Positions 19,978 to 49,380 of a stretch of 64,000 nt of DNA are shown piece after piece. A program made the translations under genes and the position numbers. Source of the stretch: Gammaproteobacteria bacterium (GTDB lineage Bacteria > Pseudomonadota > Gammaproteobacteria > DATFLL01); assembly GCA_035267785.1 (NCBI GenBank), contig DATFLL010000050.1, forward strand, positions 1,289-65,288. Direction: 5' to 3'. The notes beneath the pieces were generated by a model. That model searched no databases, was not told the DNA's origin, and saw only the letters and a program-made list of their open reading frames with translations. Position 1 is the first letter of the stretch. Each line of letters begins with the position of its first letter.

Positions 19978-21786
19978 ATGGCAGAGGAGGGGATGACAGC
20001 GGCGATGCGCTCGGGGGTGTCCGTCCGGGCCGGTGCCACGAGTGAGCCTCAGTATGTCGAGGGCCCGGCCGCCGATTCAGTGACTCAAGGGCTCGGGGAA
20101 CATCCGCTCATCCAGGCGCTCGTGCGCAGGGAAAAGCTCACTCGGGCGGACCTCGGGCGCCTGGAGCACCTCCAGCGCGAGCAGCACAATGGCGAGTCGC
20201 CTGTCCTGCTGCTCAGCAAGCTCGGCATTGTCGCGGAGCAGGAGGTTGCCAATACGGTCGCTGAGGTGCTCGGCCTGGAGCGTGCCGCGGCGGCCCAATA
20301 CCGGGAAGCTCCGGTCATGGACGAGACGATCAGTCCGCGTTTTATGCGGCAGTATCGTCTGCTACCGCTGGCCTGCGAGGATACGGACGTCACCGTTTGC
20401 ATGGCCGATCCATTTGACGAGTTTGTCGTCGAATCCATACGCATGGTCACGGGCAAGGCGGTCTTGCGTGTTGTGGGAACCCCTTCTGAATTAGACGCGG
20501 CGATTGAGCGCCTGTACGGCGAGGGGCGCTCCGAGATCGGGCGGATCCAGGACCATGAAGAGGCCCCTGAGGAGGTCTCCGATTCCGAGGTCGAACAACT
20601 CAAGGACCTGGCCAGCGAGGCGCCCGTCATCCGCATGGTGAATCTCATTATTCGACGGGCTATCGAGCGCGCCGCGTCGGATATTCACATCGAGCCGGCC
20701 GATGGACGCCTGCGCGTGCGTTTCCGTATCGACGGCGTGCTCAAGGACGCGGAGTCGCCCGCTGCCCGGATGGGTGCGGCGGTGGTCTCGCGCATCAAGA
20801 TTATGGCCAACCTGAATATCGCCGAGCGGCGCCTGCCGCAGGATGGGAGGATCCGTCAGCGCATCGAAGGGCAAGAGTTGGACTTTCGAGTCTCGACTAT
20901 CCCCGCGATGCACGGCGAGAGCGTGGTCCTGCGTATTCTCAATCGCGACGCGGTAGCCTTGGATTTCGCCGCGTTGGGCGTATCGGACGAGAACATCCGG
21001 GTGCTGGGCGACGCGATACATCGACCACACGGCATGCTGTTGGTAACGGGACCGACCGGCAGCGGCAAGACTACGACGCTTTACGCTGCTCTGACGGCCT
21101 TGAACAGTGACGAGGTCAAGATCATTACGGTCGAAGACCCTGTGGAGTACCAGATCGACGGCGTCAATCAGATACAGGTCAAACCGGCAATCGGACTGAG
21201 CTTCGCGACCGCACTGCGTTCCATCGTTCGCCAGGACCCGGATGTGATCATGGTCGGAGAAATGCGAGACCTGGAAACGGCGAAGATCTGTGTCCAGTCG
21301 GCGCTGACCGGGCATACGGTGTTGTCGACTCTGCACACGAACGATGCTGCTGGCAGTATTACGCGTCTCGTGGAAATGGGCGTCGAGAACTACCTGCTGA
21401 CCTCCACGGTCAACGCGGTTGTCGGTCAACGATTGGTCCGTGTCCTGTGCGATCACTGCAAGCGCGCACACGAACCCGTACGGGAGTTCCTGGACGTATT
21501 GGGGTTGGCCGAGGGCGAACGGGACGGGGGAGGCTTGAAATTGTTCGAGCCGCAAGGCTGCTCGCAATGCAACGGCACGGGTTATCGGGGGCGGACCGTC
21601 GTGATGGAGGTCCTTCCCATCGACGATGCGATTCGGCGCCTGATTCTTGACCGTGCGGATGCCTCGGAGATCAGGGCGGTGGCCGTGCGGCGCGGCATGG
21701 TGCCCATGTACCAGGACGGTTTGCGAAAGGTCCGGCACGGCATCACGACGCTCGAGGAAGTCTTGCGGGTAACCCAGGACGCATAA
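19978..21786 (+). CDS. gspE: type II secretion ATPase GspE
   Basis: Walker A GPTGSGKTTT, Asp and His boxes, tetracysteine CDHC...CSQCNGTG, and an N-terminal T2SSE_N-like domain. Confidence 0.9.
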   Translation: MAEEGMTAAMRSGVSVRAGATSEPQYVEGPAADSVTQGLGEHPLIQALVRREKLTRADLGRLEHLQREQHNGESPVLLLSKLGIVAEQEVANTVAEVLGLERAAAAQYREAPVMDETISPRFMRQYRLLPLACEDTDVTVCMADPFDEFVVESIRMVTGKAVLRVVGTPSELDAAIERLYGEGRSEIGRIQDHEEAPEEVSDSEVEQLKDLASEAPVIRMVNLIIRRAIERAASDIHIEPADGRLRVRFRIDGVLKDAESPAARMGAAVVSRIKIMANLNIAERRLPQDGRIRQRIEGQELDFRVSTIPAMHGESVVLRILNRDAVALDFAALGVSDENIRVLGDAIHRPHGMLLVTGPTGSGKTTTLYAALTALNSDEVKIITVEDPVEYQIDGVNQIQVKPAIGLSFATALRSIVRQDPDVIMVGEMRDLETAKICVQSALTGHTVLSTLHTNDAAGSITRLVEMGVENYLLTSTVNAVVGQRLVRVLCDHCKRAHEPVREFLDVLGLAEGERDGGGLKLFEPQGCSQCNGTGYRGRTVVMEVLPIDDAIRRLILDRADASEIRAVAVRRGMVPMYQDGLRKVRHGITTLEEVLRVTQDA

Positions 21787-21791
21787 TCCCC

Positions 21792-23009
21792 ATGACGACA
21801 TTTCATTACAAGGCGGTGACTGCGGCGGGCGAGGTCGTCGAGGGCGAGCTCGAAGCCGACGACCGTGCCAGGGCCGTGGCAGAACTGCAAGCCATGGGGC
21901 GGATACCCATCCGGGCCGAGGTGCGGGGCACACAGCGAGCGCGATGGTGGGACGGGCGCCGGTCGGTGCATCGGCGGATACCGGCGGCTGCGGTGCTCGA
22001 GTGGACCCGGGCCCTCAGCTCCCTGTTGGGTTCCGGCATATCTCTCGACCGGTCACTGCAGATTATTTCCGCCAGCGCCGGCGAACAGAGTGTCCGACTG
22101 CTTGCGGAGACGACGCAGGAGACGGTACGTGGTGGAGCTCCGCTATCGGCTGCGCTCGAGCAGTCACCGGCCGCGTTTTCGCGCTTCTACATCAATATGG
22201 TCAAGGCGGCCGAGGCGGCGGGGTCGCTCGATGTCGGACTGGAACGCCTGGAGCAGTACCTCGAACGGGGCCGGGCTTCGCGCGAACAACTGGTGTCGGC
22301 ACTGACCTATCCGGCGATCCTGCTCGCGGTGACCGGGCTTTCACTGGTGCTCATCGTCAGTTATGTCGTGCCGCAGTTCGAGCCGTTGTTTCTGGGTAAA
22401 AACGTCGAATTACCATGGTCAACCGCGTTCATTTTCGCGATGGCGGGCGCGATACGCCATTACGGTTGGTTGGCGCTCGTCCTGCTTATCGCGTCGGGTG
22501 TGGTCGCGGTGAGGTTGTGGCGGGACCCGACACGACGGATCGTCATCGACCGCACCCTTCTGCGTGTGCCGCTGTTCGGGGTGCTGCAGTCGCTGCGGGA
22601 GACGTCGGCCTTTTGCCGCAGTCTTGGCATGCTGCTGGAGAACGGGCTGCCGCTGTTGTCGGCATTCACGATCGCCAAAGAGACCGTTGGCAACCGGTGG
22701 CTCAACGGGGCGCTCGATGACGCGGTGACGGCGATTCGGGAGGGCCAGGGGTTGTCCCGCCCCTTGGAGGCCATCGAATCCTTTCCGCCGGTGGCGGTGC
22801 AACTGGTTCAGGTCGGAGAAGAAACAGGGCGCCTGGACAAGATGCTGGTACGCGTGGCGGATATCTGCGACCGAGAGTTAGGTACCCGGGTCGCGCGCGG
22901 GCTCAGTGTGTTGGAGCCGGCGCTTATTGTCGGTATGGGCGTGGTCATCGGAGGAATCATCGCCTCTTTGATGGCGGCGATCGTCAGTGTCAACGACATT
23001 CCGCTGTAG
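21792..23009 (+). CDS. gspF: type II secretion inner-membrane platform GspF
   Basis: Duplicated T2SSF domain and three TM segments. Starts 5 nt after gspE. Confidence 0.9.
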   Translation: MTTFHYKAVTAAGEVVEGELEADDRARAVAELQAMGRIPIRAEVRGTQRARWWDGRRSVHRRIPAAAVLEWTRALSSLLGSGISLDRSLQIISASAGEQSVRLLAETTQETVRGGAPLSAALEQSPAAFSRFYINMVKAAEAAGSLDVGLERLEQYLERGRASREQLVSALTYPAILLAVTGLSLVLIVSYVVPQFEPLFLGKNVELPWSTAFIFAMAGAIRHYGWLALVLLIASGVVAVRLWRDPTRRIVIDRTLLRVPLFGVLQSLRETSAFCRSLGMLLENGLPLLSAFTIAKETVGNRWLNGALDDAVTAIREGQGLSRPLEAIESFPPVAVQLVQVGEETGRLDKMLVRVADICDRELGTRVARGLSVLEPALIVGMGVVIGGIIASLMAAIVSVNDIPL

Positions 23010-23051
23010 TCAGCGGGTCGCCGTGAACATGGTAAGTCCGGAGGCAGTGGT

Positions 23052-23510
23052 ATGTGCAGACCTGTTAGAAACAATATCGAGCGTTGTCGGCATTTTGCCG
23101 CTCGGGGAGCGGGGTTTACCCTGATCGAGCTGCTGGTGGTATTGGTCATCCTGGGAATGTTGGCGGGCCTGGTCGGTCCGGCCGTGATGAAACACTTGGA
23201 TGCCTCCAAGACGCGCACTGCGAAGCTGCAAGTCGAGGAGCTCAGCGCGGCGCTGGACGCGTACAAGCTGGACGTCGGTCGTTACCCGACGACGGAGGAG
23301 GGACTGCGTTCCCTGGTCGAGCGCCCCGCCAGTGTATCGTTCTGGAACGGGCCCTATCTGCGCAAGGCGTTTGTGCCGTTGGACCCCTGGGGCCAGGAAT
23401 ATCGGTTTCGTTCTCCCGGCGAACACGGCCCCGTCGATGTCTTCTCCTTCGGAGCGGACAACGCTGAGGGTGGAACGGGCGAAAACCAGGACGTCGTGAG
23501 CTGGTTGTGA
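23052..23510 (+). CDS. gspG: major pseudopilin GspG
   Basis: Prepilin motif G-FTLIELLVVLVILG. LDPWGQEYRFRSPGEHGPVDVFSFGADNAEGG is typical of GspG. GGAGG lies 8 nt before the ATG. The leader is unusually long (about 20 aa). Confidence 0.9.
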   Translation: MCRPVRNNIERCRHFAARGAGFTLIELLVVLVILGMLAGLVGPAVMKHLDASKTRTAKLQVEELSAALDAYKLDVGRYPTTEEGLRSLVERPASVSFWNGPYLRKAFVPLDPWGQEYRFRSPGEHGPVDVFSFGADNAEGGTGENQDVVSWL

Positions 23511-23527
23511 GCCACGAACCGATACAT

Positions 23528-24001
23528 ATGAGCCACACCCGCGGTTTCACGCTGCTCGAACTGCTGGTGGTTATCACGATCGCGGCGCTGATATTGACCG
23601 TGGTTGCGGTGCGCTTCGACCTCTGGGGGCGCGGCGTGGCGGTAACGACCGCGACGCAACAACTGGCCAGCGTTATGCGTCGCGCGCATGCACGGGCCGC
23701 GCTGGAGGGCCGGACGGTGGAAATGCACATCGACCCGCAGCGCAGCCGCTATTGGTTGAGCGGCCAACCGCGCGCCTACACCTTATCCGGCGGTCTGCGG
23801 ATCGAGCCTGTCCAATCGCAGCGCGCCGCGGCTGCGCGGGTGAACGAGCGGCTCCTGGTGCGGTTCTACCCCTCGGGTACGGCCACGGGAATCGAACTTC
23901 GGATCAGCGATGGTCAGGCCGCCTATCGGTTGGAGGTGAGCGGACTGACGGGGCGTGTCAGTATGCGCCGCACGGCTGCGCTCGAGGAGGCGCCGCGATG
24001 A
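23528..24001 (+). CDS. gspH: minor pseudopilin GspH
   Basis: MSHTRG-FTLLELLVVITIA prepilin start. An alternative GTG at 23507 overlaps the gspG stop. Confidence 0.75.
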   Translation: MSHTRGFTLLELLVVITIAALILTVVAVRFDLWGRGVAVTTATQQLASVMRRAHARAALEGRTVEMHIDPQRSRYWLSGQPRAYTLSGGLRIEPVQSQRAAAARVNERLLVRFYPSGTATGIELRISDGQAAYRLEVSGLTGRVSMRRTAALEEAPR

Positions 24002-24384
24002 AAGCCGAGACCGCCGGATTCTCGCTGCTCGAGGTGCTGGTGGCACTGGCCGTACTGGGGGTGTCGCTCGGTGTGCTGTTCCGAGTCTTCGGACAGTCGC
24101 TCACGGACGTTGGGCGCGCCGAACATTATACGCAGGCGGTGCTGGTCGCCGAGTCCCAGTTGGCAACGTTGGATGTCGACCCGGGGCGCGGTCTTCGGTC
24201 ATACGAAACGGATGTCGATGATCGCTTCCACGTGAGCGTAGTGGTCAGCCCCGTCCCGCTCTTGCACGCCCGCGCCGCGGTTCCACTCGGTGCGTATCGT
24301 GTATCGATTACGGTGGATTGGGGAGAGGAGAGCCGGCGGCGTCAGGTCACTGCCACGACGGTTCGCCTCGCACGGCCGCGATGA
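23998..24384 (+). CDS. gspI: minor pseudopilin GspI
   Basis: MKAETAG-FSLLEVLVALAVLG. ATGA overlap with gspH. Confidence 0.75.
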   Translation: MKAETAGFSLLEVLVALAVLGVSLGVLFRVFGQSLTDVGRAEHYTQAVLVAESQLATLDVDPGRGLRSYETDVDDRFHVSVVVSPVPLLHARAAVPLGAYRVSITVDWGEESRRRQVTATTVRLARPR

Positions 24385-25052
24385 AGGGCCGTGCGCGAAA
24401 TGACGTCGTTTCCCGCGATGTTCGGGGCTTCACTCTCGTCGAACTGGTGGTGGCGTTGGCGGTTATGAGTTTGCTCATGCTCGTGCTGTACGACGGTCTG
24501 CACCTGGGGATGCGTACCTGGGACGCGGGTTCGCGGCGCGTGGACCGAGCCGAACAGCTTCGCCGACTGGAGGCGTTTCTCCGCGGCCAGCTGGCCAGGG
24601 TGCATTTGCCGGTCGGCGCCGCCCAATTGAACGAAGGGGCGTTATCGTTTCACGGCGATGCGTCCGGGATGGCTTTCATCGGCCGCATGCCCGCGCGCAC
24701 GGGCAGCGGCGCGTTTTACGCGTTCGTTATCAGGGTGGAGGGCGGCGGAGAGGTCAAACGGCTGGCCGCTCGGTACGCGATGGCTGAATTGTATACCGGG
24801 ATGGAGCGTGCGGCACCGGTCATTCGGTACGAAGTGCTCGTAGAGCGCGCCGGTGCGGTGCGGTTCGAGTATTTCGGGCTCGATGAACGGGGACAGTGGC
24901 ATTGGACTGGGAGTTGGGTTCGAAAACGAACGCTGCCCACGCTCGTGCGGATGCGAATCGAGCCGGCTGCACCGGACGAACGGCCGTGGCCTGAGTTGCT
25001 CTTTCGCGTGCGTGAAGGGGACTACTGGGTTCCGTCGGCGGAGACGTCATGA
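24381..25052 (+). CDS. gspJ: minor pseudopilin GspJ
   Basis: VRG-FTLVELVVALAVMSLL. ATGA overlap with gspI. Confidence 0.75.
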   Translation: MKGRARNDVVSRDVRGFTLVELVVALAVMSLLMLVLYDGLHLGMRTWDAGSRRVDRAEQLRRLEAFLRGQLARVHLPVGAAQLNEGALSFHGDASGMAFIGRMPARTGSGAFYAFVIRVEGGGEVKRLAARYAMAELYTGMERAAPVIRYEVLVERAGAVRFEYFGLDERGQWHWTGSWVRKRTLPTLVRMRIEPAAPDERPWPELLFRVREGDYWVPSAETS

Positions 25053-25948
25053 ACGGATCATTACATTCCCGGACAGTCATTGAAAGGTCGCAGCAGGGCG
25101 TGGCACTGGTGTCGGTGCTCTGGGTGGTGGCGCTGTTGACGCTCGTTGGAGCCAGTCTGACCAGCGCGGTGCGAACGGAAATCGCACTGGCCGGTCAACG
25201 GGTCACTGAGCTGCAGGGGCGTGCGGCGGCCGAAGGGGCGATCTATCTCGCCGTGCAGAGACTGCTGTTCCCGAACCTGGACACCGTGTGGCCAACGGAT
25301 GGCTCGCCGTTTGTGCAGACTGTAGGCGAAACGCAGGTGCGAGTGCAGGTGTTCGACGAGGCGGGGCGGGTCGATCTGAATATGGCCGGGCCGGAGCTGC
25401 TGGGCGGGCTGTTTCGTGCCGTCGGGGTTGCGGACGAGCAGGCGGACGCGATTGTCGATGCGATTATGGACTGGCGTGACGTTGACAGCTTGCGGCGGCT
25501 CAATGGCGCGGAAGACGGAGACTACGCCGCGGCCGGGTTGGACTACGGTGCCAAGGACGCGGACTTTGAAAGTGTCGATGAGCTGCGCATGGTGCTCGGG
25601 ATGACGCCCGAGATCTTCGCGGCGGTACGCGATGCCGTGACCGTGCATCATCGTCATGCGTGGGTCAATCCAGCCGTCGCGTCGCGTCCGGTGTTGCTGG
25701 CCATTCCGGGCATCGATGCATCTGCGGTGGACGCCTACCTGGAGGCACGCGGTGCGGGGGCAAGGCAAGTGCCGGCGCCGATCGGCGCGCAGTCGTCGCT
25801 GGTGCAGGTTCGCGGAACGACGTATACGATTCGAGCGCGTGGAGTGGAGAACGGGCGCGAGCTCGCCGGCCTGGAGGTGACGATTCGGATCAACCGCGGC
25901 GGGCAGAAACGCCCGTTCGAGGTTCTGCAATGGGACCGGATACCATGA
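25049..25948 (+). CDS. gspK: minor pseudopilin GspK
   Basis: QQGVALVSVLWVVALLTLV N-terminus without the conserved Glu5. GspK-like DWRD...DGDYAAAGLDYGAKDADFESVDELRMVLGM. ATGA overlap. Confidence 0.8.
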   Translation: MNGSLHSRTVIERSQQGVALVSVLWVVALLTLVGASLTSAVRTEIALAGQRVTELQGRAAAEGAIYLAVQRLLFPNLDTVWPTDGSPFVQTVGETQVRVQVFDEAGRVDLNMAGPELLGGLFRAVGVADEQADAIVDAIMDWRDVDSLRRLNGAEDGDYAAAGLDYGAKDADFESVDELRMVLGMTPEIFAAVRDAVTVHHRHAWVNPAVASRPVLLAIPGIDASAVDAYLEARGAGARQVPAPIGAQSSLVQVRGTTYTIRARGVENGRELAGLEVTIRINRGGQKRPFEVLQWDRIP

Positions 25949-28435: not shown

Positions 28436-28492
28436 GTGGTGGGGACGCAGTGGCGCGCCGGCCGTTATCGGGGAACCGAAGAAGGTGATTGC

Positions 28493-31481: not shown

Positions 31482-31549
31482 CACCGGCCCGTGCCGTGCC
31501 CGTGATTAATCACTATACCAATATATTCTGAATTATTGGGTGCCACGTC

Positions 31550-35592: not shown

Positions 35593-35929
35593 CTGCAGGA
35601 TGCCCCCCATCTTCGCAGGTTAAACCGTACTCCAAATTGGAGATTTAGTATGGCACAACGGTTCGGCAGGTCGTATAGCACGTTCGGGTCATAACCCGCG
35701 GGTGAACAGTGACAATACTAACTCCATTTGGTGTGTTTGCTGTATTTTTCCCGGGCAGGGGGGAATATAATTTGAACACATTGTGACAGCCGAACACGGG
35801 GACGGGGGAAGGGCCCGGCAGGCCGGCTCGCCGTCGTGGGGCCGGATGGTTCCCACGCAGGGCGGCGTACGGTAAACCGGGAATTGGGTGCATTGTCCAA
35901 AACAGGGCACAGGCCGGAGCGACGTCCTC

Positions 35930-43159: not shown

Positions 43160-43190
43160 CGGCGAACCGCGAGCGTTCAGGAGACGGAAC

Positions 43191-44525
43191 ATGAATGTGA
43201 AATTCACACAGCCAGCCCGGCTGTTGGCCATGGCGACGATGTTGTTGTCACTGGCCTGTGCGAACCTGGCGCGGGCGGAGATCGACGGGATCACCGACCC
43301 CACGTCCACGTTCAACCTATCGGCTGAAGCGAATTACATCGCAACGCCGGACGGCGGCAGCACGCTCATCTGGGGCTTTGCCGACCAGAACGGGGGCACG
43401 CCCATGCAGTATCCGGGCCCCACGCTTATCGTCAAACAGGGCGATACGGTCACTGTCAATCTCACCAATAACCTGTCGGTGCCGGTCTCCATCGTGTTTC
43501 CGGGACAGGCCGGGGTCACGGCCAGCGGCGGCGCCGCCGGGTTGTTGACCAACGAGGCGGCACCGGCCGGCGGCACGGTTCAGTATTCCTTCACGGCAAC
43601 GAACGCCGGGACCTACATGTACCACAGCGGCACCAATCCGCAACTGCAGATGGACATGGGCCTGGTGGGAGCCCTGATCGTGCGCCCGACCGGCTATGAC
43701 GCGTCGACCAACAAGATTGCCTACGGACATCCGGACACGAAATACGATCACGAATATCTGTTCTTCCTGACGGAGATGGATGTGGCGATGCACGACGCCA
43801 TCGATCAGGGGCGCCCGCAGGACGTGGACAACACGAGCTATCACCCGACGCTGTGGTTCATCAACGGGCGCAATGGCCCCGATACGATGTCCCCGGCCGG
43901 CCAGCCCTGGCTGCCGCATCAGCCCTACAGCGCCCTGGCGAGAATTCACCCGGGAGAGAAGCTGCTGCTGCGTGTCATCGGAGGGGGGCGCGACACCCAT
44001 CCGTTCCACACCCACGGCAACGACTTCGAGCAAATCGGGCGTGACGGGCGGATGCTCCAGAGCGCGCCGGGCGCCGGGCCGGATTTGCAGCGGGGCGACT
44101 ACACCATGCAGACGGTGCCCGGCGCGACTTACGAGGCGATTTTCCAGTGGACGGGCCGCGAGCTCGGCTGGGATATCTATGGCACCCCGGCACAGGGCGG
44201 TGCAGCCCACACCTGCAATGGGCTCGATACGGCCTCGGCGGGCTTCGACCCTGTAACGCATGAGTACTGCCCGGATCACGGCAAACCCCTGCCGGTGGTT
44301 CTTCCCGAGACCCAGGACCTGACCTTTGGCGGTTTCTACAGTGGCAGTCCGTTCCTCGGCGGGCTCGCCGATCTGCCGCCGGGTGAGGGCGGGCTCAATC
44401 TCTACGGTGGCATGTTCTTCATGTGGCACAGCCATAACGCCGTGGAACAGGTCAACAACGACATCTTCCCGGGCGGTATGACGACGATGCTGATCGTCGA
44501 GCCGCCAGGGGTTCCGATTCCCTGA
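43191..44525 (+). CDS. multicopper-oxidase-fold protein 2: trinuclear-site His pairs only in the C-terminal domain, no T1 Cys
   Basis: Signal peptide. The N-terminal domain is degenerate (IVFPGQ, YMYHSG). The C-terminal domain has HPFHTHG (H270, H273, H275) and WHSH (H413, S414, H415) in place of HCH. Confidence 0.85.
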   Translation: MNVKFTQPARLLAMATMLLSLACANLARAEIDGITDPTSTFNLSAEANYIATPDGGSTLIWGFADQNGGTPMQYPGPTLIVKQGDTVTVNLTNNLSVPVSIVFPGQAGVTASGGAAGLLTNEAAPAGGTVQYSFTATNAGTYMYHSGTNPQLQMDMGLVGALIVRPTGYDASTNKIAYGHPDTKYDHEYLFFLTEMDVAMHDAIDQGRPQDVDNTSYHPTLWFINGRNGPDTMSPAGQPWLPHQPYSALARIHPGEKLLLRVIGGGRDTHPFHTHGNDFEQIGRDGRMLQSAPGAGPDLQRGDYTMQTVPGATYEAIFQWTGRELGWDIYGTPAQGGAAHTCNGLDTASAGFDPVTHEYCPDHGKPLPVVLPETQDLTFGGFYSGSPFLGGLADLPPGEGGLNLYGGMFFMWHSHNAVEQVNNDIFPGGMTTMLIVEPPGVPIP

Positions 44526-44562
44526 GCCGACTAGGCAATGAACTGAGGACAGGAGTGCTGTC

Positions 44563-46713
44563 ATGCTCAAGTCAAAAACATCAATCGCGCTAGTCGGTCT
44601 TCTGACGTTGGCGGCGGGCCCGGCGGCCGCGGTCACCTATGACCTCTGCGCGGGTCCATTTAACCAGACTATGCCCGACGGTACGGTGGTCCCCATGTGG
44701 GGTTTCGCACCGGGCGGCGCGACCGGCGGGGTCTGTGACGCGCCGCCGACGGCGCCGGGGCCCATGCTTACGGTGCCCGACGGGGACAACGTCTTGACTA
44801 TCAACCTTGTCAACACGCTGCCGAATACCAACGGGGCGCCAACGCCCGTGTCGGTCGTTGTCCCGGGGCAGATCACCGCCATGGAACCGCAGCGTAACCC
44901 CGACGGGCGAGTGCGTTCCTTCACGCATGAGACGCTGCCGGGTACACCGGGGGTGTACACCTGGTCGAACTTCACGCCGGGCACCTACATCTACCACAGC
45001 GGCAGCCATCCGGCGGTACAGGTCCAGATGGGACTGTACGGCGGTGTCAAGAGGGACAGCGGACCGGGCGTCGCGTATCCGGGCGTTGGTTATGACGCCG
45101 AGGTCGTGATGTTCTACAGCGAGCTGGACCCGGACCTGCACGCGGCCGTGGCGAGCGACGATTACGGTCCGGGTAAGGGGACGACCAGCACGCTCTACTA
45201 TCATCCGCAGTATTTTCTGATCAACGGGGCGCCCTATGTCGACGGTGTTACGCCGGATCTGGCGGGAGCGCCTTCAGGCCAGCGTACGCTGATCCGCTTC
45301 CTGAACGCGGGCTTGAAGACCCACGTGCCGGAGATCCTGGGACGCTACATGAGCATCAAGGCCGAGGATGGCAAGGCGTATCCGTACCCAAGAGAGCAGT
45401 TCTCCTTGCAGCTGCCGGCCATGAAGACCAAGGACGCGGTCGTCGTCAGCGACAGCCGCTACCCAATCTACGACCGCGCGATGGCCTTGACCAATGGCAC
45501 GGGTGCCGGTCCGGGCGGCATGCTCAGGTTCGTGGCCCTCGGTTCGCCGTCGGCCGCCGACACCGTTACCATCCTGCGCACGCGTCACGACAGCGGCACG
45601 TCGTCGTTCAGTGTGTGGGCCGACAGCTCGGCCGCCGGTGCGGGCACGGTTCTGTCTCTGCAGGGCTATGGTGACATGACTTACGCGGCCGATCCCGACT
45701 TCGGTTACAGCATCGCAGCGGCCGGTGTCGTCACCAACCCGGGCAGCGCCACGGTCAACAGCAGCCTGGGCGGCAGTGACAGCAAGGCTGTGCCGTACAC
45801 GGCGCCGCCCGTGGCGAGTGCCGATGCTGCGAGTGTCGACGAGGGTGCGAGCGTGAACGTCCCGGCGGCCGGCGTGCTGGCCAACGACAGCAAGGGCGGC
45901 TACTTCGGTAGCGGCGAAGCCCTCGCGGCCGTGCTGGTCACACCGCCCAGCAATGGTACGGTGACGCTCAACGCCGACGGCAGCTTCAGCTACACGCACA
46001 ACGGGAGCGAGACGACCGTCGACAGCTTCACCTATCGGGTCGATGCCATCGACACCGGAACCTCCACGACGTTGGCGAGCAGCAGTCCCGCGACCGTGAC
46101 GGTTACCGTGAACCCGGTAAACGACACGCCGGTGGCGGTGGCGGACGCCGTGACTACGGCGGACGGTACGGCAGTGGTCGTGCCGGTCCTGTCCAACGAC
46201 ACGGATGCCGACGGCGACCCGCTCAGTGTCACGGCCGTGACGCAGGGCACCAGCGGCACGGTCAGCCTGGTCAGCGGTACGGTGACCTATACGCCGACCG
46301 CGCCGGGTCCGTACACCGACAGCTTCACCTATACGGTGGACGATGGTAACGGCGGAACGGCGGTGGGTACGGTCACGGTGACCGTGGAGGCGGCGGTTAA
46401 TCAGCCCCCGGTGGCTTCTGACGATGCGGGTACTGTGACGCGCAACAAGCGCAACACTTCGCCGCCGAACTCGGTGACCATCGACGTGCTGGCCAATGAC
46501 AGCGATGCCGACGGTAGCCTGGTCCCGTCCACTGTCCAGGTGACGGTGCCCCCGGCACACGCCGGTACGGTGTCGGTAAACCCGTCGACCGGTGCCATCA
46601 CCTATACACCGCCGGTCAACTTCCGCGGCACCGACGTGTTCAAGTACACGGTGCAGGACGACGCCGGTGCGACGTCCAACGCGGCGAGCGTGAACGTCAA
46701 CGTCGTGCGGTAA
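44563..46713 (+). CDS. copper-ligand-less MCO-fold protein fused to three cadherin-like/Ig-like repeats
   Basis: Signal peptide. Two cupredoxin-like domains lack His ligands (VVVPGQ, YIYHSGSHPAVQVQMGLYG). Three repeats of about 100 aa carry LANDS/LSNDTDADGDPL and FTYTV/FKYTV motifs. Confidence 0.8.
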   Translation: MLKSKTSIALVGLLTLAAGPAAAVTYDLCAGPFNQTMPDGTVVPMWGFAPGGATGGVCDAPPTAPGPMLTVPDGDNVLTINLVNTLPNTNGAPTPVSVVVPGQITAMEPQRNPDGRVRSFTHETLPGTPGVYTWSNFTPGTYIYHSGSHPAVQVQMGLYGGVKRDSGPGVAYPGVGYDAEVVMFYSELDPDLHAAVASDDYGPGKGTTSTLYYHPQYFLINGAPYVDGVTPDLAGAPSGQRTLIRFLNAGLKTHVPEILGRYMSIKAEDGKAYPYPREQFSLQLPAMKTKDAVVVSDSRYPIYDRAMALTNGTGAGPGGMLRFVALGSPSAADTVTILRTRHDSGTSSFSVWADSSAAGAGTVLSLQGYGDMTYAADPDFGYSIAAAGVVTNPGSATVNSSLGGSDSKAVPYTAPPVASADAASVDEGASVNVPAAGVLANDSKGGYFGSGEALAAVLVTPPSNGTVTLNADGSFSYTHNGSETTVDSFTYRVDAIDTGTSTTLASSSPATVTVTVNPVNDTPVAVADAVTTADGTAVVVPVLSNDTDADGDPLSVTAVTQGTSGTVSLVSGTVTYTPTAPGPYTDSFTYTVDDGNGGTAVGTVTVTVEAAVNQPPVASDDAGTVTRNKRNTSPPNSVTIDVLANDSDADGSLVPSTVQVTVPPAHAGTVSVNPSTGAITYTPPVNFRGTDVFKYTVQDDAGATSNAASVNVNVVR

Positions 46714-46731
46714 TCCGAGAGGGCCGAGATC

Positions 46732-47232
46732 ATGCAATACGGTAACGCAGTGTCGGCTCTGGCAGGCGAGGGGGCGGCGGTTCGCCGCCGCTCCCGAGCT
46801 CTGCCGCTGTTGGGTGGGGCATTCGTGATTGGCGCACTGGCGCTGGCCTGGATCTTCTCCTGGTTCAACGCGGGGGCTATGTCGCCGTCGGCGTCGGAGC
46901 TGCGCAATACCTGGGGTATTGAAATCCTCGGTATCCGCACCTCAGCGGCCGGCTATATGCTGGACTACCGCTTTCGCGTCAAGGACGTCGACAAGGCCGC
47001 TCCGCTGCTCGATCGCACGATTCCCGCCTACATCGTGGTGGAGAAGAGCGGGGCCCGGCTCGGAGTGCCCAACCCACCGACCACCGGTCGGCTGCGCGCT
47101 TCGGCCAAGTTTCCCAAGAAGGATCGGAACTATTTCATCTTCTTCGGCAACCCCGGCCACTACGTCAAGGCAGGGGATCGAGTCAGTGTCGTGATTGGCG
47201 ACTTCAAAGTCCAGCACCTCGTTGTGCAATAG
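46732..47232 (+). CDS. membrane-anchored hypothetical protein
   Basis: One N-terminal TM (LLGGAFVIGALALAWIF) and a beta-rich domain of about 110 aa. The next gene starts immediately after its stop. Confidence 0.55.
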   Translation: MQYGNAVSALAGEGAAVRRRSRALPLLGGAFVIGALALAWIFSWFNAGAMSPSASELRNTWGIEILGIRTSAAGYMLDYRFRVKDVDKAAPLLDRTIPAYIVVEKSGARLGVPNPPTTGRLRASAKFPKKDRNYFIFFGNPGHYVKAGDRVSVVIGDFKVQHLVVQ

Positions 47233-49326
47233 ATGGGTTCGACGCATATGACACACCGCAGCATCAAATGGGCAGTCGCCCCGGTCCTGGGCCTGGCGGT
47301 ACTGTGCACGGCCGGGCTTGCGAGCGCAGGCAGTATCGGGTCGAGCCTGAAGGAGCGGCTCGAGCAGCTCGGTCCTGACGATGAGGTGGCGGTCATCATC
47401 CGTCTCAAGGACAAGGCGGATGTGCGCTCGTTCAAGGACCTGGATCGGCACGCACGGCGGGCGAAGATCATCAAGGCCCTACGCGACAAGGCGGCCCAGT
47501 CTTTGGAGCCGCTGCGGGTGGTACTCAATCAGGGCGAGGTGCGCAGGATGCGCGACCTGTGGCTGATCAACGGCGTTGCGGCGACGGTGCCGGCCCACCG
47601 TGTCGGTGCGCTGGCGAACAAGCCCTGGGTGGGCAACATCTCCCTGGACATGACCTTGGCCGCGCCGACGGTGACCTATGGCGTGACGTCGACGCCCGGC
47701 TGGAATCTCGCCGCGATGGCGGCGCCCGATCTGTGGCAACAGGGTTTCACGGGCCAGGGTGTGGTCGTGGCTACGTTGGACAGCGGCGTCGATACCTTCC
47801 ATCCCGATGTCGGCAGCCGCTGGCGCGGCGGTTCCAACAGCTGGTTCGATCCTTACGGCCAGCATGCGACACCGGTGGACATGAACGGTCACGGTACACA
47901 CGTGGCGGGCCTCATCCTCGGGGGCGATGCCAGCGGGCAGGTATTGGGGGTCGCGCCCGACGCGCAGTGGATTGCAGCAAAGATTTACGATGACGCCGGA
48001 AGCGCGACCTTCAGCGCGATTCATCTCGCGCTGCAGTGGGCGCTCGATCCGGACGGCAATCCGGACGTCGACGATGCGCCGGACGTGGTTAACAACTCCT
48101 GGGGCTTGCCGGATGCGGCGGGGACGTGTAACCCGGAATTCGCGGAGGACATAGCGGCACTGCGGGCCTCGGACATCGCTGTCGTGTTCGCGGCGGGCAA
48201 CTCCGGCCCCAATGCCTCCAGCGATCTCAGCCCGGGCAACAGCTCGCCGAACCTGGTGACCGGTGCCGTCGACGAGACCCTGACGATCGCGCCCTCCAGC
48301 AGCCGCGGACCCTCGTCCTGCGATGGCGGGCTCTATCCGCAGGTCGTGGCGCCGGGAGTGAACGTCCTCACGGCAGACCTGACGTTCAGCGGTCTGTTCC
48401 CGCAGTCGTACGTCGAGGTGTCCGGCACGTCGTTCGCTGCGGCACAGGCAAGCGGCACCCTGGCGCTGCTGATAAGCGCTGTTCCGACGGCGAGCGTGAA
48501 CGAGTTGGAAACAGCCGTGTTGGATACGGCCGTGGACAAGGGCGCGTTGGGTCCCGATTACGATTACGGCATGGGGCTCGTCAACGCCGCCGATGCGTAC
48601 AACACCCTGGCCGGTGGCACCACGGCGCAGCCGGGCAGCCTGCAGTTCGCCGTGGCCGGATACAGCGTCAGCGAAGACGGAGGCAGCGTGACGCTGACGG
48701 TGAGCCGACAGGGCGGCAGCAGCGGCGCGGTGTCGGTCGACTTTGCCACCTCGGACGGATCGGCCGCCTCCGGTCAGGACTACGTTGCGGCCGCCGGTAC
48801 GCTCAACTTTGCCGACGGCATTACCAGCCGGACGATTACGATTACCATTGTCGACGACACGGTTTACGAGGGAAACGAGACATTGTCGGTGGCGCTCGCC
48901 AATCCGACCGGCGGTGCAACCCTCGGCTCGCCCATTTCGACGCTGTTGACTATCGTCGACAACGATCCGCAGGTTGTCGATGTCGATCAGGACGGGTATG
49001 CCGCCGGTTCGGATTGCAATGACAACGATGCGTCCGTTTATCCCGGTGCGCCTGAGATCAAGCACGACGGTGTCGATCAGGATTGCAACGGCTACGATTT
49101 GACCATCGACATCAGCGCACTGCGCTACAACGCCAAGAAGGGCAAGCTGACCGTGGAGGCCACCAGCGCGCTCAATGGCTCGGCCAATCTCTCGGTTGAC
49201 GGATTCGGGGCGATGAGCTGGAACCGGCGCAAGGGTGTTTGGCAGTTGGATGTCTCGGGCGTCGGGACGCAGCCGACCCGGATCACGGTCAGCGGTGTCG
49301 AGGGATCCGAAACGGCACCATTCTGA
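47233..49326 (+). CDS. secreted subtilisin-like (S8) serine protease with I9 propeptide, Calx-beta and MopE-like Cys/Asp motif
   Basis: Catalytic triad in VVVATLDSGVD, HGTHVAGL, SGTSFAAAQASG. Calx-beta VSVDFATSDGSAASGQDYVAAAGTLNFADG...ITIVDDTVYEGNE. DQDGYAAGSDCNDNDASVYPGAPEIKHDGVDQDCNG. Confidence 0.85.
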   Translation: MGSTHMTHRSIKWAVAPVLGLAVLCTAGLASAGSIGSSLKERLEQLGPDDEVAVIIRLKDKADVRSFKDLDRHARRAKIIKALRDKAAQSLEPLRVVLNQGEVRRMRDLWLINGVAATVPAHRVGALANKPWVGNISLDMTLAAPTVTYGVTSTPGWNLAAMAAPDLWQQGFTGQGVVVATLDSGVDTFHPDVGSRWRGGSNSWFDPYGQHATPVDMNGHGTHVAGLILGGDASGQVLGVAPDAQWIAAKIYDDAGSATFSAIHLALQWALDPDGNPDVDDAPDVVNNSWGLPDAAGTCNPEFAEDIAALRASDIAVVFAAGNSGPNASSDLSPGNSSPNLVTGAVDETLTIAPSSSRGPSSCDGGLYPQVVAPGVNVLTADLTFSGLFPQSYVEVSGTSFAAAQASGTLALLISAVPTASVNELETAVLDTAVDKGALGPDYDYGMGLVNAADAYNTLAGGTTAQPGSLQFAVAGYSVSEDGGSVTLTVSRQGGSSGAVSVDFATSDGSAASGQDYVAAAGTLNFADGITSRTITITIVDDTVYEGNETLSVALANPTGGATLGSPISTLLTIVDNDPQVVDVDQDGYAAGSDCNDNDASVYPGAPEIKHDGVDQDCNGYDLTIDISALRYNAKKGKLTVEATSALNGSANLSVDGFGAMSWNRRKGVWQLDVSGVGTQPTRITVSGVEGSETAPF

Positions 49327-49343
49327 TTTGCCTTCCCGCTCGA

Positions 49344-49380
49344 CCCGCGCCGTGAGCACCGCGGCGCGGGGTTTTTCTTT
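49344..49380 (+). terminator. rho-independent terminator ending the 6-gene operon
   Basis: CCCGCGCCG-(9 nt loop)-CGGCGCGGG followed by GTTTTTCTTT. Starts 18 nt after the stop. Confidence 0.8.

What the first reader, a model, noticed from the sequence alone, without database searches (positions are those of the whole stretch)
19978..49380. About 29-kb supercluster: dedicated T2SS, five two-component proteins and a secreted multicopper-oxidase operon
Seen: three gap-free blocks follow each other. The first is a complete T2SS (19978-30718). The second is 2 histidine kinases plus 3 response regulators (30726-36289). The third is a 6-gene operon (36575-49326) closed by a terminator. All six products carry signal peptides or anchors and extracellular-type domains (beta-helix, TIG, cadherin-like, Calx-beta, S8 protease, three MCO folds). 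Established: T2SS substrates are folded periplasmic proteins. In Pseudomonas putida GB-1, secretion of the Mn(II)-oxidising factor was reported to need a Gsp-type pathway, and Mn oxidation to need a two-component pathway. Inference: this is a self-contained secretion, regulation and cargo unit for an extracellular copper-dependent oxidase complex. Candidate substrates are Mn(II), Fe(II) or phenolics. I do not recognise this gene set as a described system.
Basis: partly seen in the sequence, partly recalled or inferred. Interest (0 to 1): 0.78.

Follow-up and report, generated by a model that had tools for sequence, protein, structure and literature searches.

The report
Secreted three-subunit copper oxidase module
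Next to a secretion machine, this bacterium carries a widely shared but uncharacterised gene set that seems to build an extracellular copper oxidase whose oxygen-reducing copper site is split between two proteins, an arrangement I found no report of.

Summary
The three blocks exist as described, with corrections. The third response regulator lies on the minus strand, the regulator block has gaps of about 280 nt, and no prepilin peptidase is present.

The conserved unit is not the 29-kb supercluster. It is giant protein, MCO1, MCO2 and MCO3, usually followed by a small lipoprotein and an S8 protease. All three MCOs were present in 57 of 57 informative loci, from Proteobacteria, Desulfobacterota, Acidobacteriota, Planctomycetota and Nitrospirota. 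The giant protein matched 407 species genomes. SCO1 and a MofC-like cytochrome c often accompany the unit.

T2SS genes lie within 10 kb in only about a quarter of loci. They occur in several arrangements, and in two the operon sits inside a T2SS cluster. Export by T2SS is therefore plausible, but "self-contained unit" is too strong.

The main new point concerns the copper ligands. MCO1 keeps only the domain-1 ligands (type-1 copper plus four trinuclear histidines). MCO2 keeps only the four domain-2 histidines. MCO3 keeps none. This pattern holds in 67-72 orthologs and predicts an obligate heteromeric, probably heterotrimeric, two-domain MCO with one active site. Natural giant-MCO1 fusions tie the scaffold to the enzyme.

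The substrate is unknown. A similar-looking Sideroxydans cluster is induced on magnetite. This is a new variant of a known kind.

The parts
17350..19002 (-). MofC-like protein: N-terminal monoheme cytochrome c (CAQCH) fused to a periplasmic-binding-protein domain.
   Evidence: Pfam Cytochrom_C + Peripla_BP_6. CxxCH motif read. Adjacent to the operon in 23 of 57 loci. He et al. 2017 describe MofC-like proteins as cyt c + periplasmic binding domain.
19002..19694 (-). SCO1/SenC-type membrane-anchored copper chaperone (CTAIC motif, His/Met-rich N-terminal stretch). Proposed periplasmic copper donor for the oxidase.
   Evidence: Pfam SCO1-SenC E=1.7e-22. Motifs read. Found next to the operon in 29 of 57 loci, upstream or downstream.
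19978..30718 (+). Type II secretion gene cluster in Xps-like order. GspE 19978-21786, F 21792-23009, G 23052-23510, H 23507-24001, I 23998-24384, J 24381-25052, K 25049-25948, L 25945-27270, M 27267-27854, C/N-like 27854-28435, D secretin 28436-30718.
   Evidence: Pfam/NCBIfam hits. Start codons checked. No GspO in the block.
30726..32908 (+). RR1 (receiver + LuxR/GerE HTH, 30726-31481) and HK1 (GAF-like, HisKA, HATPase, 31550-32908). RR1 starts 7 nt after gspD, so the pair probably belongs to the T2SS insertion rather than to the oxidase module.
   Evidence: Pfam. Absent from most related loci, where SCO1 abuts HK2.
33185..34930 (+). HK2: soluble GAF-PAS-HisKA_3-HATPase histidine kinase, the conserved sensor of the module.
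   Evidence: Pfam. Homologs lie upstream of the operon in many loci.
34939..35610 (-). RR2: NarL/LuxR-type response regulator on the minus strand, convergent with HK2. Partner of HK2.
   Evidence: NCBIfam E=5e-57. 50-59% identical homologs sit in the same position and orientation in many loci.
35930..36289 (+). RR3: single-domain receiver protein directly upstream of the operon. Public gene call is 119 aa; the ORF could start at 35888.
   Evidence: Pfam Response_reg E=2e-23. Gene call. Conserved in many loci.
36575..41857 (+). Giant 1760-aa secreted scaffold. Sec-type signal peptide, about 1100 aa of tandem CnaB/SdrD-B-type beta-sandwich domains plus a TIG-like domain, then a right-handed beta-helix (weak NosD similarity) and a C-terminal choice-of-anchor Q motif.
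   Evidence: Pfam/NCBIfam. AF2 pLDDT 81, pTM 0.77, with Foldseek matches to pilin/adhesin beta-sandwich arrays. 45-60% identity across phyla. Natural fusions to MCO1.
41927..43159 (+). MCO1, 410 aa. Two-domain MCO whose domain 1 keeps the type-1 Cu ligands (H134, C180, H187, M192) and four trinuclear-site His (H137, H139, H179, H181). Domain 2 has lost its His ligands.
   Evidence: Pfam. Alignment to 3g5w. Ligands are invariant or nearly so in 72 orthologs, 71-72 of 72 at every position.
43191..44525 (+). MCO2, 444 aa. Two-domain MCO paralog with degenerate domain 1 (VSIVFPG / YHSG). Domain 2 keeps HPxHxHG (H270, H273, H275) and WHSH (H413, H415), has no Cys and therefore no type-1 Cu.
   Evidence: Pfam. 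Alignment to 3g5w and 2zwn. Invariant in 67 orthologs.
44563..46713 (+). MCO3, 716 aa. Two-cupredoxin-domain paralog of MCO2 with no copper ligands, followed by three Big_9/cadherin-like repeats. Proposed ring-closing, non-catalytic subunit.
   Evidence: BLASTP to MCO2 1e-22. Cu-oxidase_3 23.1 bits. Ligand columns degenerate in 67 orthologs. The cadherin module is absent from MCO3 where it is fused to giant-MCO1.
46732..47232 (+). Small 166-aa membrane-anchored beta-sandwich protein. A lipoprotein with an L-x-G-C lipobox in most homologs; no conserved Cys or His. Role unknown.
   Evidence: No family hit. Alignment of 63 homologs. AF2 pLDDT 84.5. No significant PDB fold match. Present in 50 of 57 loci.
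47233..49326 (+). Secreted subtilase (S8) with N-terminal pro-region, Calx-beta domain and MopE-type putative metal-binding motif. Proposed maturation or release protease.
   Evidence: Pfam Peptidase_S8 5e-52, Calx-beta 4e-27, Cu-binding_MopE 4e-10. D/H/S motifs read. Present in 46 of 57 loci with variable C-terminal modules.
49344..49380 (+). Intrinsic-terminator-like hairpin (11 pairs, 10 G-C) plus T-run that closes the operon.

Best explanation
The conserved element is an extracellular multicopper-oxidase complex module with its maturation and regulatory genes. In this genome it sits beside a type II secretion system that probably exports it.

**Proposed mechanism**
1. All structural proteins have Sec-type signal peptides and no Tat motif. 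They should therefore reach the periplasm unfolded and copper-free (sequence shown, consequence inferred).
2. The membrane-anchored SCO1/SenC chaperone and the MofC-like cytochrome c/binding protein supply and redox-condition copper in the periplasm (inferred from family knowledge and co-localisation).
3. MCO1, MCO2 and MCO3 are paralogs of homotrimeric type-C two-domain MCOs. MCO1 keeps only the domain-1 copper ligands: the type-1 site plus four His. MCO2 keeps only the four domain-2 His. MCO3 keeps none (shown).
4. In two-domain MCOs the trinuclear O2-reducing cluster forms between domain 1 of one chain and domain 2 of the next. A functional cluster here can therefore form only at an MCO1-MCO2 interface. 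The enzyme must be a heteromer, most simply a 1:1:1 six-domain ring with one type-1 Cu and one trinuclear cluster, closed by MCO3 (inferred).
5. The 1760-aa beta-sandwich/beta-helix protein is part of the same complex, because it is fused to MCO1 in some genomes (fusion shown). It probably acts as a stalk or surface-binding scaffold (inferred).
6. The S8 protease probably matures or releases the complex. The small lipoprotein's role is unknown.
7. The folded complex is exported by a T2SS (inferred from recurrent and embedded synteny).
8. HK2, RR2 and RR3 control expression (inferred from conserved position).

The substrate is not established. A solid or dissolved reduced metal, Fe(II) or Mn(II), is the leading guess.
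For: **Conservation of the core**
- Gene content and order. The operon keeps its order in 56 of 57 informative loci from many phyla.
- The giant protein matches 407 species genomes.

**Split copper ligands**
- MCO1 ligands are present in 71-72 of 72 orthologs at every position.
- MCO2 and MCO3 patterns hold in 67 orthologs each.
- Residue-level alignment to the crystallised type-C enzyme 3g5w shows which domain lost which motif.
- The three proteins are paralogs.

**Scaffold belongs to the enzyme**
- Natural giant-cadherin-MCO1 fusions exist. In one such locus they are followed by separate MCO2 and a cadherin-less MCO3.
- The scaffold fold is an array of adhesin-type beta-sandwiches.

**Maturation and export**
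- SCO1 and the MofC-like gene co-localise with the operon. Their motifs were read.
- No Tat consensus was found in MCO1, MCO2 or MCO3.
- T2SS genes are adjacent in 20 of 81 loci in different arrangements. The operon is embedded in T2SS clusters in an Azospirillaceae MAG and in Amphritea atlantica.

**Literature**
- A three-cupredoxin cluster with SCO1 and a cytochrome in S. lithotrophicus ES-1 is predicted extracellular and is more abundant on magnetite.
- Geobacter OmpB is described in the title of Mehta et al. 2006 as secreted by an atypical T2SS; this title appears only in the reference list of PMC5566968.
- Iodidimonas iox genes are flanked by gsp genes.
Against: - No complex was modelled or observed. 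The heterotrimer rests on ligand complementarity and analogy to homotrimeric two-domain MCOs.
- Most loci lack a T2SS within 10 kb, so export could use a distant general T2SS or another route.
- The small lipoprotein and the choice-of-anchor motif hint at cell-surface retention rather than release.
- The system also occurs in strict anaerobes (Desulfococcus, Desulfatibacillum, Dissulfuribacter), which is awkward for an O2-dependent oxidase.
- Orthology of the ES-1 cluster to this operon was not tested at sequence level.
- SCO1 here also lies near a COX1-family gene and could serve that enzyme.
Confidence: 0.6

Rival explanations
1. The T2SS is the organism's general-purpose secretion system and lies next to the oxidase operon by chance or genomic hitch-hiking. 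The oxidase complex is periplasmic or tethered to the outer membrane and is exported, if at all, independently of this T2SS.
For: - About three quarters of related loci have no T2SS gene within 10 kb.
- The T2SS+RR1+HK1 block looks like an insertion between SCO1 and HK2.
- The small protein is a lipoprotein in most genomes.
- Only 64 kb of the genome is visible, so 'dedicated' cannot be shown.
Against: - A 25% adjacency rate is far above my rough estimate of about 1% for a 25-kb window overlapping one 11-kb cluster in a 4-Mb genome.
- The arrangements differ (upstream, downstream, divergent). In two lineages the operon sits inside a T2SS cluster.
- The nearest relatives keep an orphan GspL-GspM pair in the module.
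Confidence: 0.25
2. The module is mainly a cell-surface adhesion or matrix-building apparatus. The giant adhesin-like protein and cadherin repeats mediate attachment, and the oxidase cross-links phenolic or tyrosine groups (or makes pigment) in an extracellular matrix rather than oxidising metals.
For: - The giant N-terminus resembles pilin/adhesin beta-sandwich arrays.
- Big_9/cadherin repeats, Calx-beta and a choice-of-anchor motif are present.
- An associated protease is present.
- Laccase-type MCOs commonly oxidise phenolics (general knowledge).
Against: - The giant protein is 45-60% identical across phyla. That is much more constrained than typical adhesins.
- The ES-1 three-cupredoxin cluster responds to a solid Fe(II) mineral.
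- The taxa carrying the module are mostly lithotrophs and sediment anaerobes.
Confidence: 0.2
3. The module serves copper homeostasis. It would act as an extracellular or periplasmic cuprous oxidase and copper-sequestering system, like CueO or CopA with helpers.
For: - A SCO1 chaperone with a His/Met-rich stretch.
- A MopE-type metal-binding motif on the protease.
- Weak NCBIfam similarity of MCO1 and MCO2 to CopA.
Against: - No Met-rich substrate loop in MCO1.
- No cop/cus/cue regulators or efflux genes in the conserved neighbourhood.
- A 1760-aa scaffold and a T2SS are out of proportion for detoxification.
- The regulators are NarL-type with a cytoplasmic GAF-PAS kinase, not CopRS or CueR.
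Confidence: 0.1
4. MCO1 and MCO2 do not share a copper cluster. MCO1 acts as a type-1 (blue copper) electron carrier, and the conserved histidines of MCO2 bind something else or are relics.
Against: - Exactly the eight canonical trinuclear-site His are conserved across 67-72 orthologs from distant phyla, while the complementary motifs decayed. H181 is the one exception, conserved in 71 of 72.
- The HCH triad that links type-1 Cu to the cluster is intact in MCO1.
- The three genes always co-occur.
Confidence: 0.05

Closest known systems
Type-C two-domain multicopper oxidase (Nitrosomonas europaea blue copper oxidase, PDB 3g5w)
   Same: - Best solved-structure match of MCO1 and among the best four of MCO2.
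- Two cupredoxin domains.
- Type-1 Cu in domain 1 with the same HxxHxH and HCHxxxxxHxxxxM motifs.
- Trinuclear His contributed by domain 1 and domain 2.
   Different: - The known enzyme is a homotrimer in which every chain carries all ligands, giving three active sites.
- Here the ligands are partitioned between two paralogs, a third paralog has none, and one active site per ring is predicted.
- Sec rather than Tat signal peptides.
- Large insertions and extra repeats.
Sideroxydans lithotrophicus ES-1 cluster Slit_1812-1818 (He et al. 2017, PMC5566968; Keffer et al. 2025, AEM 91:e01865-24)
   Same: - Three tandem cupredoxin proteins. Two have MCO motifs; one is larger, has no motifs and carries adhesin/polysaccharide-lyase-like domains.
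- Small hypothetical proteins, SCO1/SenC and a MofC-like cytochrome.
- Predicted extracellular.
- The gene order parallels MCO1-MCO2-MCO3-small-...-SCO1-MofC seen here and in Thiobacillus loci.
   Different: - As described, it has no separate giant protein and no S8 protease.
- Sequence orthology was not tested here, because the ES-1 sequences could not be retrieved.
- The papers do not describe split copper ligands or a T2SS link.
MofA/OmpB-type extracellular MCO clusters (Leptothrix mofABC; Geobacter sulfurreducens OmpB with OxpG T2SS)
   Same: - Extracellular MCO encoded beside a MofC-type cytochrome c/periplasmic-binding protein and, in some cases, an SCO1 chaperone.
- OmpB is described in the title of Mehta et al. 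2006 as secreted by an atypical T2SS. I saw this only as a title in the reference list of PMC5566968.
- Adhesion-type domains and a link to metal minerals.
   Different: - MofA and OmpB are single large polypeptides with complete MCO motifs.
- He et al. state that the tandem MCOs are not homologous to them.
- No MofB peptidyl-prolyl isomerase here.
Iodide-oxidising enzyme cluster ioxABCDEF of Iodidimonas/Roseovarius (PMC9415286)
   Same: - Extracellular multi-subunit MCO (IoxA + IoxC).
- SCO1/SenC homologs in the cluster.
- gsp (T2SS) genes in the flanking region.
   Different: - IoxA (62 kDa) carries all four copper-binding regions itself.
- Three SCO1 homologs are present.
- No giant scaffold or S8 protease is described.
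- Homology of IoxC to MCO3 was not tested.
Pseudomonas putida GB-1 Mn(II) oxidation (MnxG/McoA, xcp-type secretion, MnxS1/S2/R) and Bacillus Mnx complex (MnxEFG)
   Same: - Extracellular or surface MCO activity linked to a Gsp-type pathway and two-component control.
- Mnx is a multimeric MCO complex (cited).
   Different: - Those MCOs are large single chains with complete sites.
- MnxE and MnxF are small non-MCO subunits.
- MnxR is a sigma-54-type regulator (from memory), whereas RR2 here is NarL-type.
Ceruloplasmin-type six-domain MCOs
   Same: Predicted overall architecture: a six-cupredoxin-domain ring with a single trinuclear cluster at one domain interface, the other interfaces being inactive (family knowledge).
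   Different: - Ceruloplasmin is one polypeptide with three type-1 sites.
- Here the ring would be three polypeptides with one type-1 site. The resemblance is inferred, not modelled.

Membership tests
Type II secretion system (Gsp/Xps) | GspE secretion ATPase and GspF platform protein | tested here: met
   T2SSE E=1e-141, T2SSF E=2e-52
Type II secretion system (Gsp/Xps) | Major pseudopilin G and minor pseudopilins H, I, J, K with N-methylation motif | tested here: met
   T2SSG 5e-40, GspH, T2SSK_1st and N_methyl motifs in five consecutive ORFs
Type II secretion system (Gsp/Xps) | Assembly-platform proteins L and M, and the secretin-interacting GspC | tested here: inconclusive
   M: T2SSM_b 4e-19. 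L: only a PilN-type domain. C: GspC_delta 38 bits against a cut-off of 150.
Type II secretion system (Gsp/Xps) | Outer-membrane secretin GspD with N0 and Secretin_N domains | tested here: met
   Secretin 5e-52, Secretin_N x3, GspD N0
Type II secretion system (Gsp/Xps) | Prepilin peptidase GspO/PilD | tested here: not met
   No such ORF between 19978 and 30718. It may lie elsewhere in the genome, as is common.
Two-domain multicopper oxidase (homotrimeric, type C) | Two cupredoxin domains per chain | tested here: met
   MCO1 and MCO2 Pfam Cu-oxidase hits. MCO3 Cu-oxidase_3 plus paralogy to MCO2.
Two-domain multicopper oxidase (homotrimeric, type C) | Type-1 Cu ligands (His, Cys, His, Met) in domain 1 | tested here: met
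   MCO1 only: H134, C180, H187, M192, conserved in 71-72 of 72 orthologs. MCO2 and MCO3 lack the Cys.
Two-domain multicopper oxidase (homotrimeric, type C) | All eight trinuclear-cluster His within one polypeptide, so that a homotrimer forms three clusters | tested here: not met
   MCO1 has only the four domain-1 His, MCO2 only the four domain-2 His, MCO3 none.
Two-domain multicopper oxidase (homotrimeric, type C) | Trimeric quaternary structure | not testable with these tools
   Only single-chain structure prediction was available.
MofA/OmpB-type extracellular MCO cluster | MofC-type cytochrome c + periplasmic-binding-domain protein in the cluster | tested here: met
   17350-19002: Cytochrom_C + Peripla_BP_6, CAQCH motif. 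Definition.
MofA/OmpB-type extracellular MCO cluster | Large single-chain MCO homologous to MofA/OmpB | not tested
   MofA and OmpB sequences were not retrievable. He et al. state the tandem MCOs of ES-1 are not homologous to them.
MofA/OmpB-type extracellular MCO cluster | MofB peptidyl-prolyl isomerase | tested here: not met
   No PPIase among the conserved neighbours.
S. lithotrophicus ES-1 three-cupredoxin cluster (Slit_1812-1818) | Two MCO-motif proteins plus one larger motif-less cupredoxin protein in tandem, with small hypotheticals, SCO1 and a cytochrome | tested here: met
   The same pattern is in the window. Description.
S. lithotrophicus ES-1 three-cupredoxin cluster (Slit_1812-1818) | Sequence orthology to Slit_1816-1818 | not tested
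Sideroxydans and Sideroxyarcus MAGs do carry the full operon (L033, L026).
Iodide oxidase iox cluster | IoxA: one polypeptide with four copper-binding regions | tested here: not met
   No protein here has all four regions. Definition.
Iodide oxidase iox cluster | SCO1/SenC homologs and flanking gsp genes | tested here: met
   One SCO1 gene and a T2SS cluster are adjacent. Definition.

The most novel reading that the evidence does not exclude
The operon encodes an obligate heterotrimeric two-domain multicopper oxidase. Three paralogous chains would form one six-domain ring with a single type-1 copper and a single trinuclear cluster shared between two different polypeptides. This ring would be mounted on a 1760-aa adhesin-like scaffold, matured in the periplasm by SCO1 and MofC, and exported by a T2SS. 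There it would act as an extracellular oxidase for solid or dissolved reduced metals such as Fe(II) or Mn(II) minerals, across many phyla including nominal anaerobes. It would be a living multi-chain counterpart of the intermediate proposed between trimeric two-domain MCOs and ceruloplasmin-type enzymes.
Probability: 0.35. Interest if true: 0.85.

Novelty: new variant of a known kind. Interest (0 to 1): 0.7.

Why it matters
**Enzymology.** All two-domain multicopper oxidases I know of are homotrimers with three identical sites. I found no report of one whose O2-reducing cluster is split between different gene products. If confirmed, it would show how subunit specialisation can turn a symmetric trimer into an asymmetric single-site enzyme. 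That is the same logic proposed for the origin of ceruloplasmin-type six-domain oxidases.

**Ecology.** The module is strongly conserved, with the scaffold 45-60% identical across phyla. It occurs in sulfur oxidisers, iron oxidisers, methanotrophs, symbionts and sulfate reducers from sediments and groundwater. A similar-looking cluster in Sideroxydans is induced on magnetite. The module is therefore a concrete, testable candidate for a non-cytochrome route of extracellular metal or mineral oxidation.

**Experiments.** Cultured carriers exist, so genetics and secretome work are feasible. Examples from the genome scan are Amphritea atlantica DSM 18887 and Methylocaldum sp. GT1BB.

Tried and rejected
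1. **Extra conserved neighbours.** All-vs-all clustering of ORFs from 83 loci found only NtrC-type sigma-54 regulators, in 11 loci. The other large clusters were antisense shadow ORFs in high-GC DNA.
2. **Sigma-54 promoter upstream of the operon.** Pattern matches were at chance level: 26 found against 28 expected, and none in the 35610-36575 region.
3. **Small protein as copper chaperone or pilotin.** It has no conserved Cys or His. The confident AF2 model (pLDDT 84.5) gave no PDB fold match below E=0.02. Function left open.
4. **Giant protein against solved structures by sequence profile.** Nothing found. Only the fold search was informative.
5. **Tat export.** No twin-arginine consensus in MCO1, MCO2 or MCO3 orthologs. 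The few RR hits lie in over-extended N-termini.
6. **NirK-type reading of MCO1.** Rejected, because the motifs are HxxHxH and HCH (MCO type) rather than the nitrite-reductase pattern.
7. **Sequence orthology with Sideroxydans ES-1 Slit_1816-1818.** Could not be tested.
8. **Literature precedent for a heteromeric MCO with a split trinuclear site.** None found in three searches. The 'heterotrimer' of Nmar_1354 is a proteolytic variant of one gene product.
9. **Multimer modelling.** Not possible: the structure tool folds single chains and accepts only window or database sequences.

Full report
**1. What is in the window**

ORF listing and profile searches confirm three consecutive blocks.

*T2SS block.* Coordinates 19978-30718 encode GspE, F, G, H, I, J, K, L, M, a short GspC/XpsN-like protein and the secretin GspD, all on the + strand. 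Start and stop codons overlap or abut. From memory, the E-to-M, N/C, D order is that of the Xanthomonas xps cluster. No prepilin peptidase lies in the block.

*Regulator block.* RR1 (LuxR-type) starts 7 nt after gspD and is followed by HK1. After a 276-nt gap comes HK2, a soluble GAF-PAS-HisKA_3 kinase. The plus-strand ORF at that position has no family hit. A single-domain receiver, RR3, precedes the operon.

*Cargo operon.* Six genes at 36575-49326 are tightly packed and end at a strong hairpin with a T-run at 49344-49380.

One is an SCO1/SenC copper chaperone (CTAIC motif, His/Met-rich stretch). The other is a cytochrome c fused to a periplasmic-binding domain (CAQCH).

**2. The conserved unit is the operon, not the supercluster**

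MCO1 has thousands of homologs at 63-72% identity, named only 'multicopper oxidase domain-containing protein'.

Gene neighbourhoods in Methylocaldum and Kaarinaea lacus show the same six genes in the same order. HK2- and RR2-like regulators (plus an RR3-like receiver in Methylocaldum), SCO1 and the cytochrome c/binding protein are also present. No T2SS is present.

A scan of one genome per species with a profile of the giant protein matched 407 species. The best 80 loci come from:
- Gammaproteobacteria: Thiohalomonadaceae, Methylocaldum, Amphritea, Thiodiazotropha, Sedimenticolaceae.
- Betaproteobacteria: Thiobacillus, Sulfuricella, Sideroxydans, Hydrogenophilus.
- Azospirillum.
- Desulfobacterota: Desulfococcus, Desulfatibacillum, Desulfoferrobacter.
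- Acidobacteriota, Planctomycetota, Nitrospirota, Hydrogenedentes and Binatia.

Mapping the window proteins onto these loci gave the following. The denominator is the 57 loci with enough downstream sequence.

| Component | Loci with it |
|---|---|
| MCO1, MCO2 and MCO3 all present | 57 of 57 (same order in 56) |
| Small protein | 50 |
| S8 protease | 46 |
| SCO1 within 10 kb | 29 |
| MofC-like protein within 10 kb | 23 |

No other gene family recurs, apart from alternative regulators. In Kaarinaea and the nearest relatives, SCO1 abuts the HK2-RR2 pair. The window's T2SS+RR1+HK1 block therefore looks like an insertion into the module.

**3. The T2SS link is facultative but not random**

With relaxed searches, 20 of 81 distinct loci carry at least one gsp gene within the fetched flanks, and 17 carry two or more. 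Among loci with full 10-kb flanks, 9 of 42 carry two or more.

The arrangements differ:
- Upstream on the same strand, as in the window (L048).
- Upstream and divergent (L036).
- Downstream gspE-F-G(-H) in at least eight loci.
- Embedded. In an Azospirillaceae MAG the order is GspD-K-[giant-MCO1-MCO2-MCO3-small-S8]-GspF-H-I-J. In Amphritea atlantica DSM 18887 it is GspI-J-K ... SCO1-MofC-[operon]-GspL.
- An orphan GspL-GspM pair between SCO1 and HK2 in the nearest relatives.

My rough expectation for a 25-kb window overlapping a single T2SS cluster by chance is about 1%. T2SS export is therefore a well-supported inference. 'Dedicated' and 'self-contained' are not shown: only 64 kb of this genome is visible, and most relatives keep any T2SS elsewhere.

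**4. The oxidase: three paralogs with complementary copper ligands**

MCO1, MCO2 and the N-terminal 330 residues of the 716-aa protein are paralogs (BLASTP 6e-15 and 1e-22). MCO3 reaches the Cu-oxidase_3 threshold when its N-terminus is scanned alone. The best solved relative of MCO1, and one of the best four for MCO2, is 3g5w. This is the homotrimeric type-C two-domain MCO of Nitrosomonas europaea.

Residue-level alignments to it give this pattern:

| Protein | Domain 1 | Domain 2 |
|---|---|---|
| MCO1 | keeps PHTVHFHG and YHCHVEATEHMQMGM | the enzyme's 'IHDH' motif is replaced by 'YTT' |
| MCO2 | 'PHTIHWHG' replaced by 'PVSIVFPG'; 'YHCH' replaced by 'YHSG' | keeps 'HPFHTHG' and 'WHSH' |
| MCO3 | no ligand motif | no ligand motif |

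In alignments of 67-72 orthologs taken from the loci:
- The eight trinuclear-site His are MCO1 H137/H139/H179/H181 and MCO2 H273/H275/H413/H415. All are invariant except H181, which is conserved in 71 of 72.
- The type-1 ligands of MCO1 (H134, C180, H187, M192) are invariant except H134, conserved in 71 of 72.
- The complementary positions are degenerate.

It is established knowledge for SLAC, mgLAC and the Nitrosomonas enzyme that the trinuclear cluster of a two-domain MCO forms between domain 1 of one chain and domain 2 of its neighbour. A cluster here can therefore form only between MCO1 and MCO2. Because these enzymes are trimeric rings, the constant presence of a ligand-free third paralog suggests a 1:1:1 heterotrimer with one active site. 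This step is inference; I could not model a complex.

Three full-text searches found no report of such an enzyme. The 'heterotrimer' of Nmar_1354 is a proteolytic form of one gene product.

**5. The scaffold and accessory proteins**

*Giant protein.* It is unusually conserved for its size, 45-60% identical across phyla. Its first 1142 residues fold with confidence (pLDDT 81, pTM 0.77) into tandem beta-sandwiches that match Gram-positive pilins, SdrD B-repeats and the B. anthracis TIE protein. The C-terminal third is a right-handed beta-helix with weak NosD similarity, ending in a choice-of-anchor Q motif.

*Fusions.* Several metagenomic homologs are natural fusions of giant, cadherin repeats and MCO1, 2292-2456 aa long, with the MCO1 copper motifs intact. 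In one such locus the fusion is followed by separate MCO2 and by an MCO3 that lacks cadherin repeats. The scaffold and the catalytic subunit therefore belong to one assembly, and the cadherin module moves between subunits.

*Small protein.* It is a lipoprotein in most genomes and has a beta-sandwich fold. It has no conserved Cys or His and no informative structural match.

*S8 protease.* It has an intact catalytic triad and a variable C-terminus: Calx-beta + MopE motif here, He_PIG + cadherin in Methylocaldum.

*Export signals.* MCO1, MCO2 and MCO3 carry Sec-type signal peptides without a Tat consensus. Many bacterial MCOs are Tat substrates (family knowledge). Periplasmic folding and copper insertion would explain the linked SCO1 and MofC-like genes.

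**6. What is already known**

- He et al. [quoted passage not shown] They predicted the products to be extracellular and had no functional clue. They defined MofC-like proteins as cytochrome c + periplasmic binding domain.
- Keffer et al. 2025 found that cluster, Slit_1812-1818, more abundant on magnetite than on Fe(II)-citrate. It has two MCO-motif proteins, one larger motif-less cupredoxin protein with adhesin/polysaccharide-lyase-like domains, small hypotheticals, SCO1 and a cytochrome. The description parallels MCO1-MCO2-MCO3-small-SCO1-MofC. I could not test orthology.
- Precedents for extracellular MCOs tied to T2SS exist. Geobacter OmpB appears in the reference list of He et al. under the title of Mehta et al. 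[quoted passage not shown] Iodidimonas iox genes are flanked by gsp genes.

The kind of system is therefore known: an extracellular MCO with a copper chaperone, a MofC-like protein and a T2SS. As far as I can tell, four things have not been described:
- the split-site architecture;
- the giant scaffold;
- the protease;
- the breadth of distribution.

**7. Function**

The substrate is not determined. Points in favour of a metal or mineral substrate:
- the magnetite response of the ES-1 cluster;
- the lithotroph- and sediment-rich taxon list;
- the adhesin-like scaffold;
- two invariant glutamates flanking the type-1 His ligand (E183, E186).

From memory, an acidic residue sits in the same place in the ceruloplasmin ferroxidase site. 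This is a lead, not a test.

Points against a simple aerobic oxidase: the module also occurs in strict anaerobes. Matrix cross-linking, copper handling and iodide or phenolic oxidation remain possible.

**8. Verdict**

Novelty: a new variant of a known kind. Interest: 0.7.

Noticed in passing
window 15281-16675 (+), with unannotated ORFs at 12986-14395 and 14662-16134: A 464-aa COX1-family (heme-copper oxidase subunit I) gene lies just upstream of the MofC-like/SCO1 pair. It is preceded by ORFs with no Pfam hit. SCO1 could also serve this oxidase.
   Followed up: partly
L005 2718-4434, L006 4382-6095, L055 3228-5100: In the nearest relatives (Thiohalomonadaceae and HGW-Gammaproteobacteria-1 MAGs), only a GspL-GspM-like pair sits between SCO1 and HK2, with no other T2SS genes nearby. 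It may be a remnant, or an adaptor that plugs the module into a distant T2SS.
   Followed up: partly
P0153, P0176, P0189, P0195; L089 10001-19746: Natural fusions of the giant scaffold, cadherin repeats and MCO1 in one 2292-2456-aa protein. In L089 the fusion is followed by separate MCO2 and a short MCO3 without cadherin repeats, and no S8 protease was called downstream.
   Followed up: yes
L015 (Amphritea atlantica DSM 18887), L009 (Methylocaldum sp. GT1BB), L037 (Desulfoferrobacter suflitae DRH4): Cultured strains carry the full operon. In Amphritea it is embedded between T2SS genes. These strains are ready-made experimental systems.
   Followed up: partly
window 49805-52894 (-) and 61377-63107 (-): A DnaE2-type error-prone polymerase (1029 aa) lies immediately downstream of the operon, convergent with it. 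An ImuB/IMS-family gene lies further on. The DnaE2 neighbour is also present in contigs carrying the same or a 92%-identical MCO1.
   Followed up: no
window 7648-10890 (+) and 11041-12963 (+): A large AAA/BTAD/winged-helix regulator and a HAMP-containing sigma-54 activator lie upstream. In 11 other loci an NtrC-type sigma-54 regulator sits next to the operon instead of the NarL-type pair. No sigma-54 promoter was detectable here.
   Followed up: partly
window 47233-49326 vs L001 14985-17216 and L003 15258-16985: The C-terminal modules of the S8 protease vary between genomes: Calx-beta + MopE motif here, He_PIG + cadherin repeats in Methylocaldum, MopE only in Kaarinaea. The catalytic domain is conserved.
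   Followed up: no
window 54000-58000: G+C drops to about 0.55 over genes for an RsgA GTPase, a nitroreductase-family protein and a CSD-DUF1294 protein. Nothing links this region to the finding.
   Followed up: no
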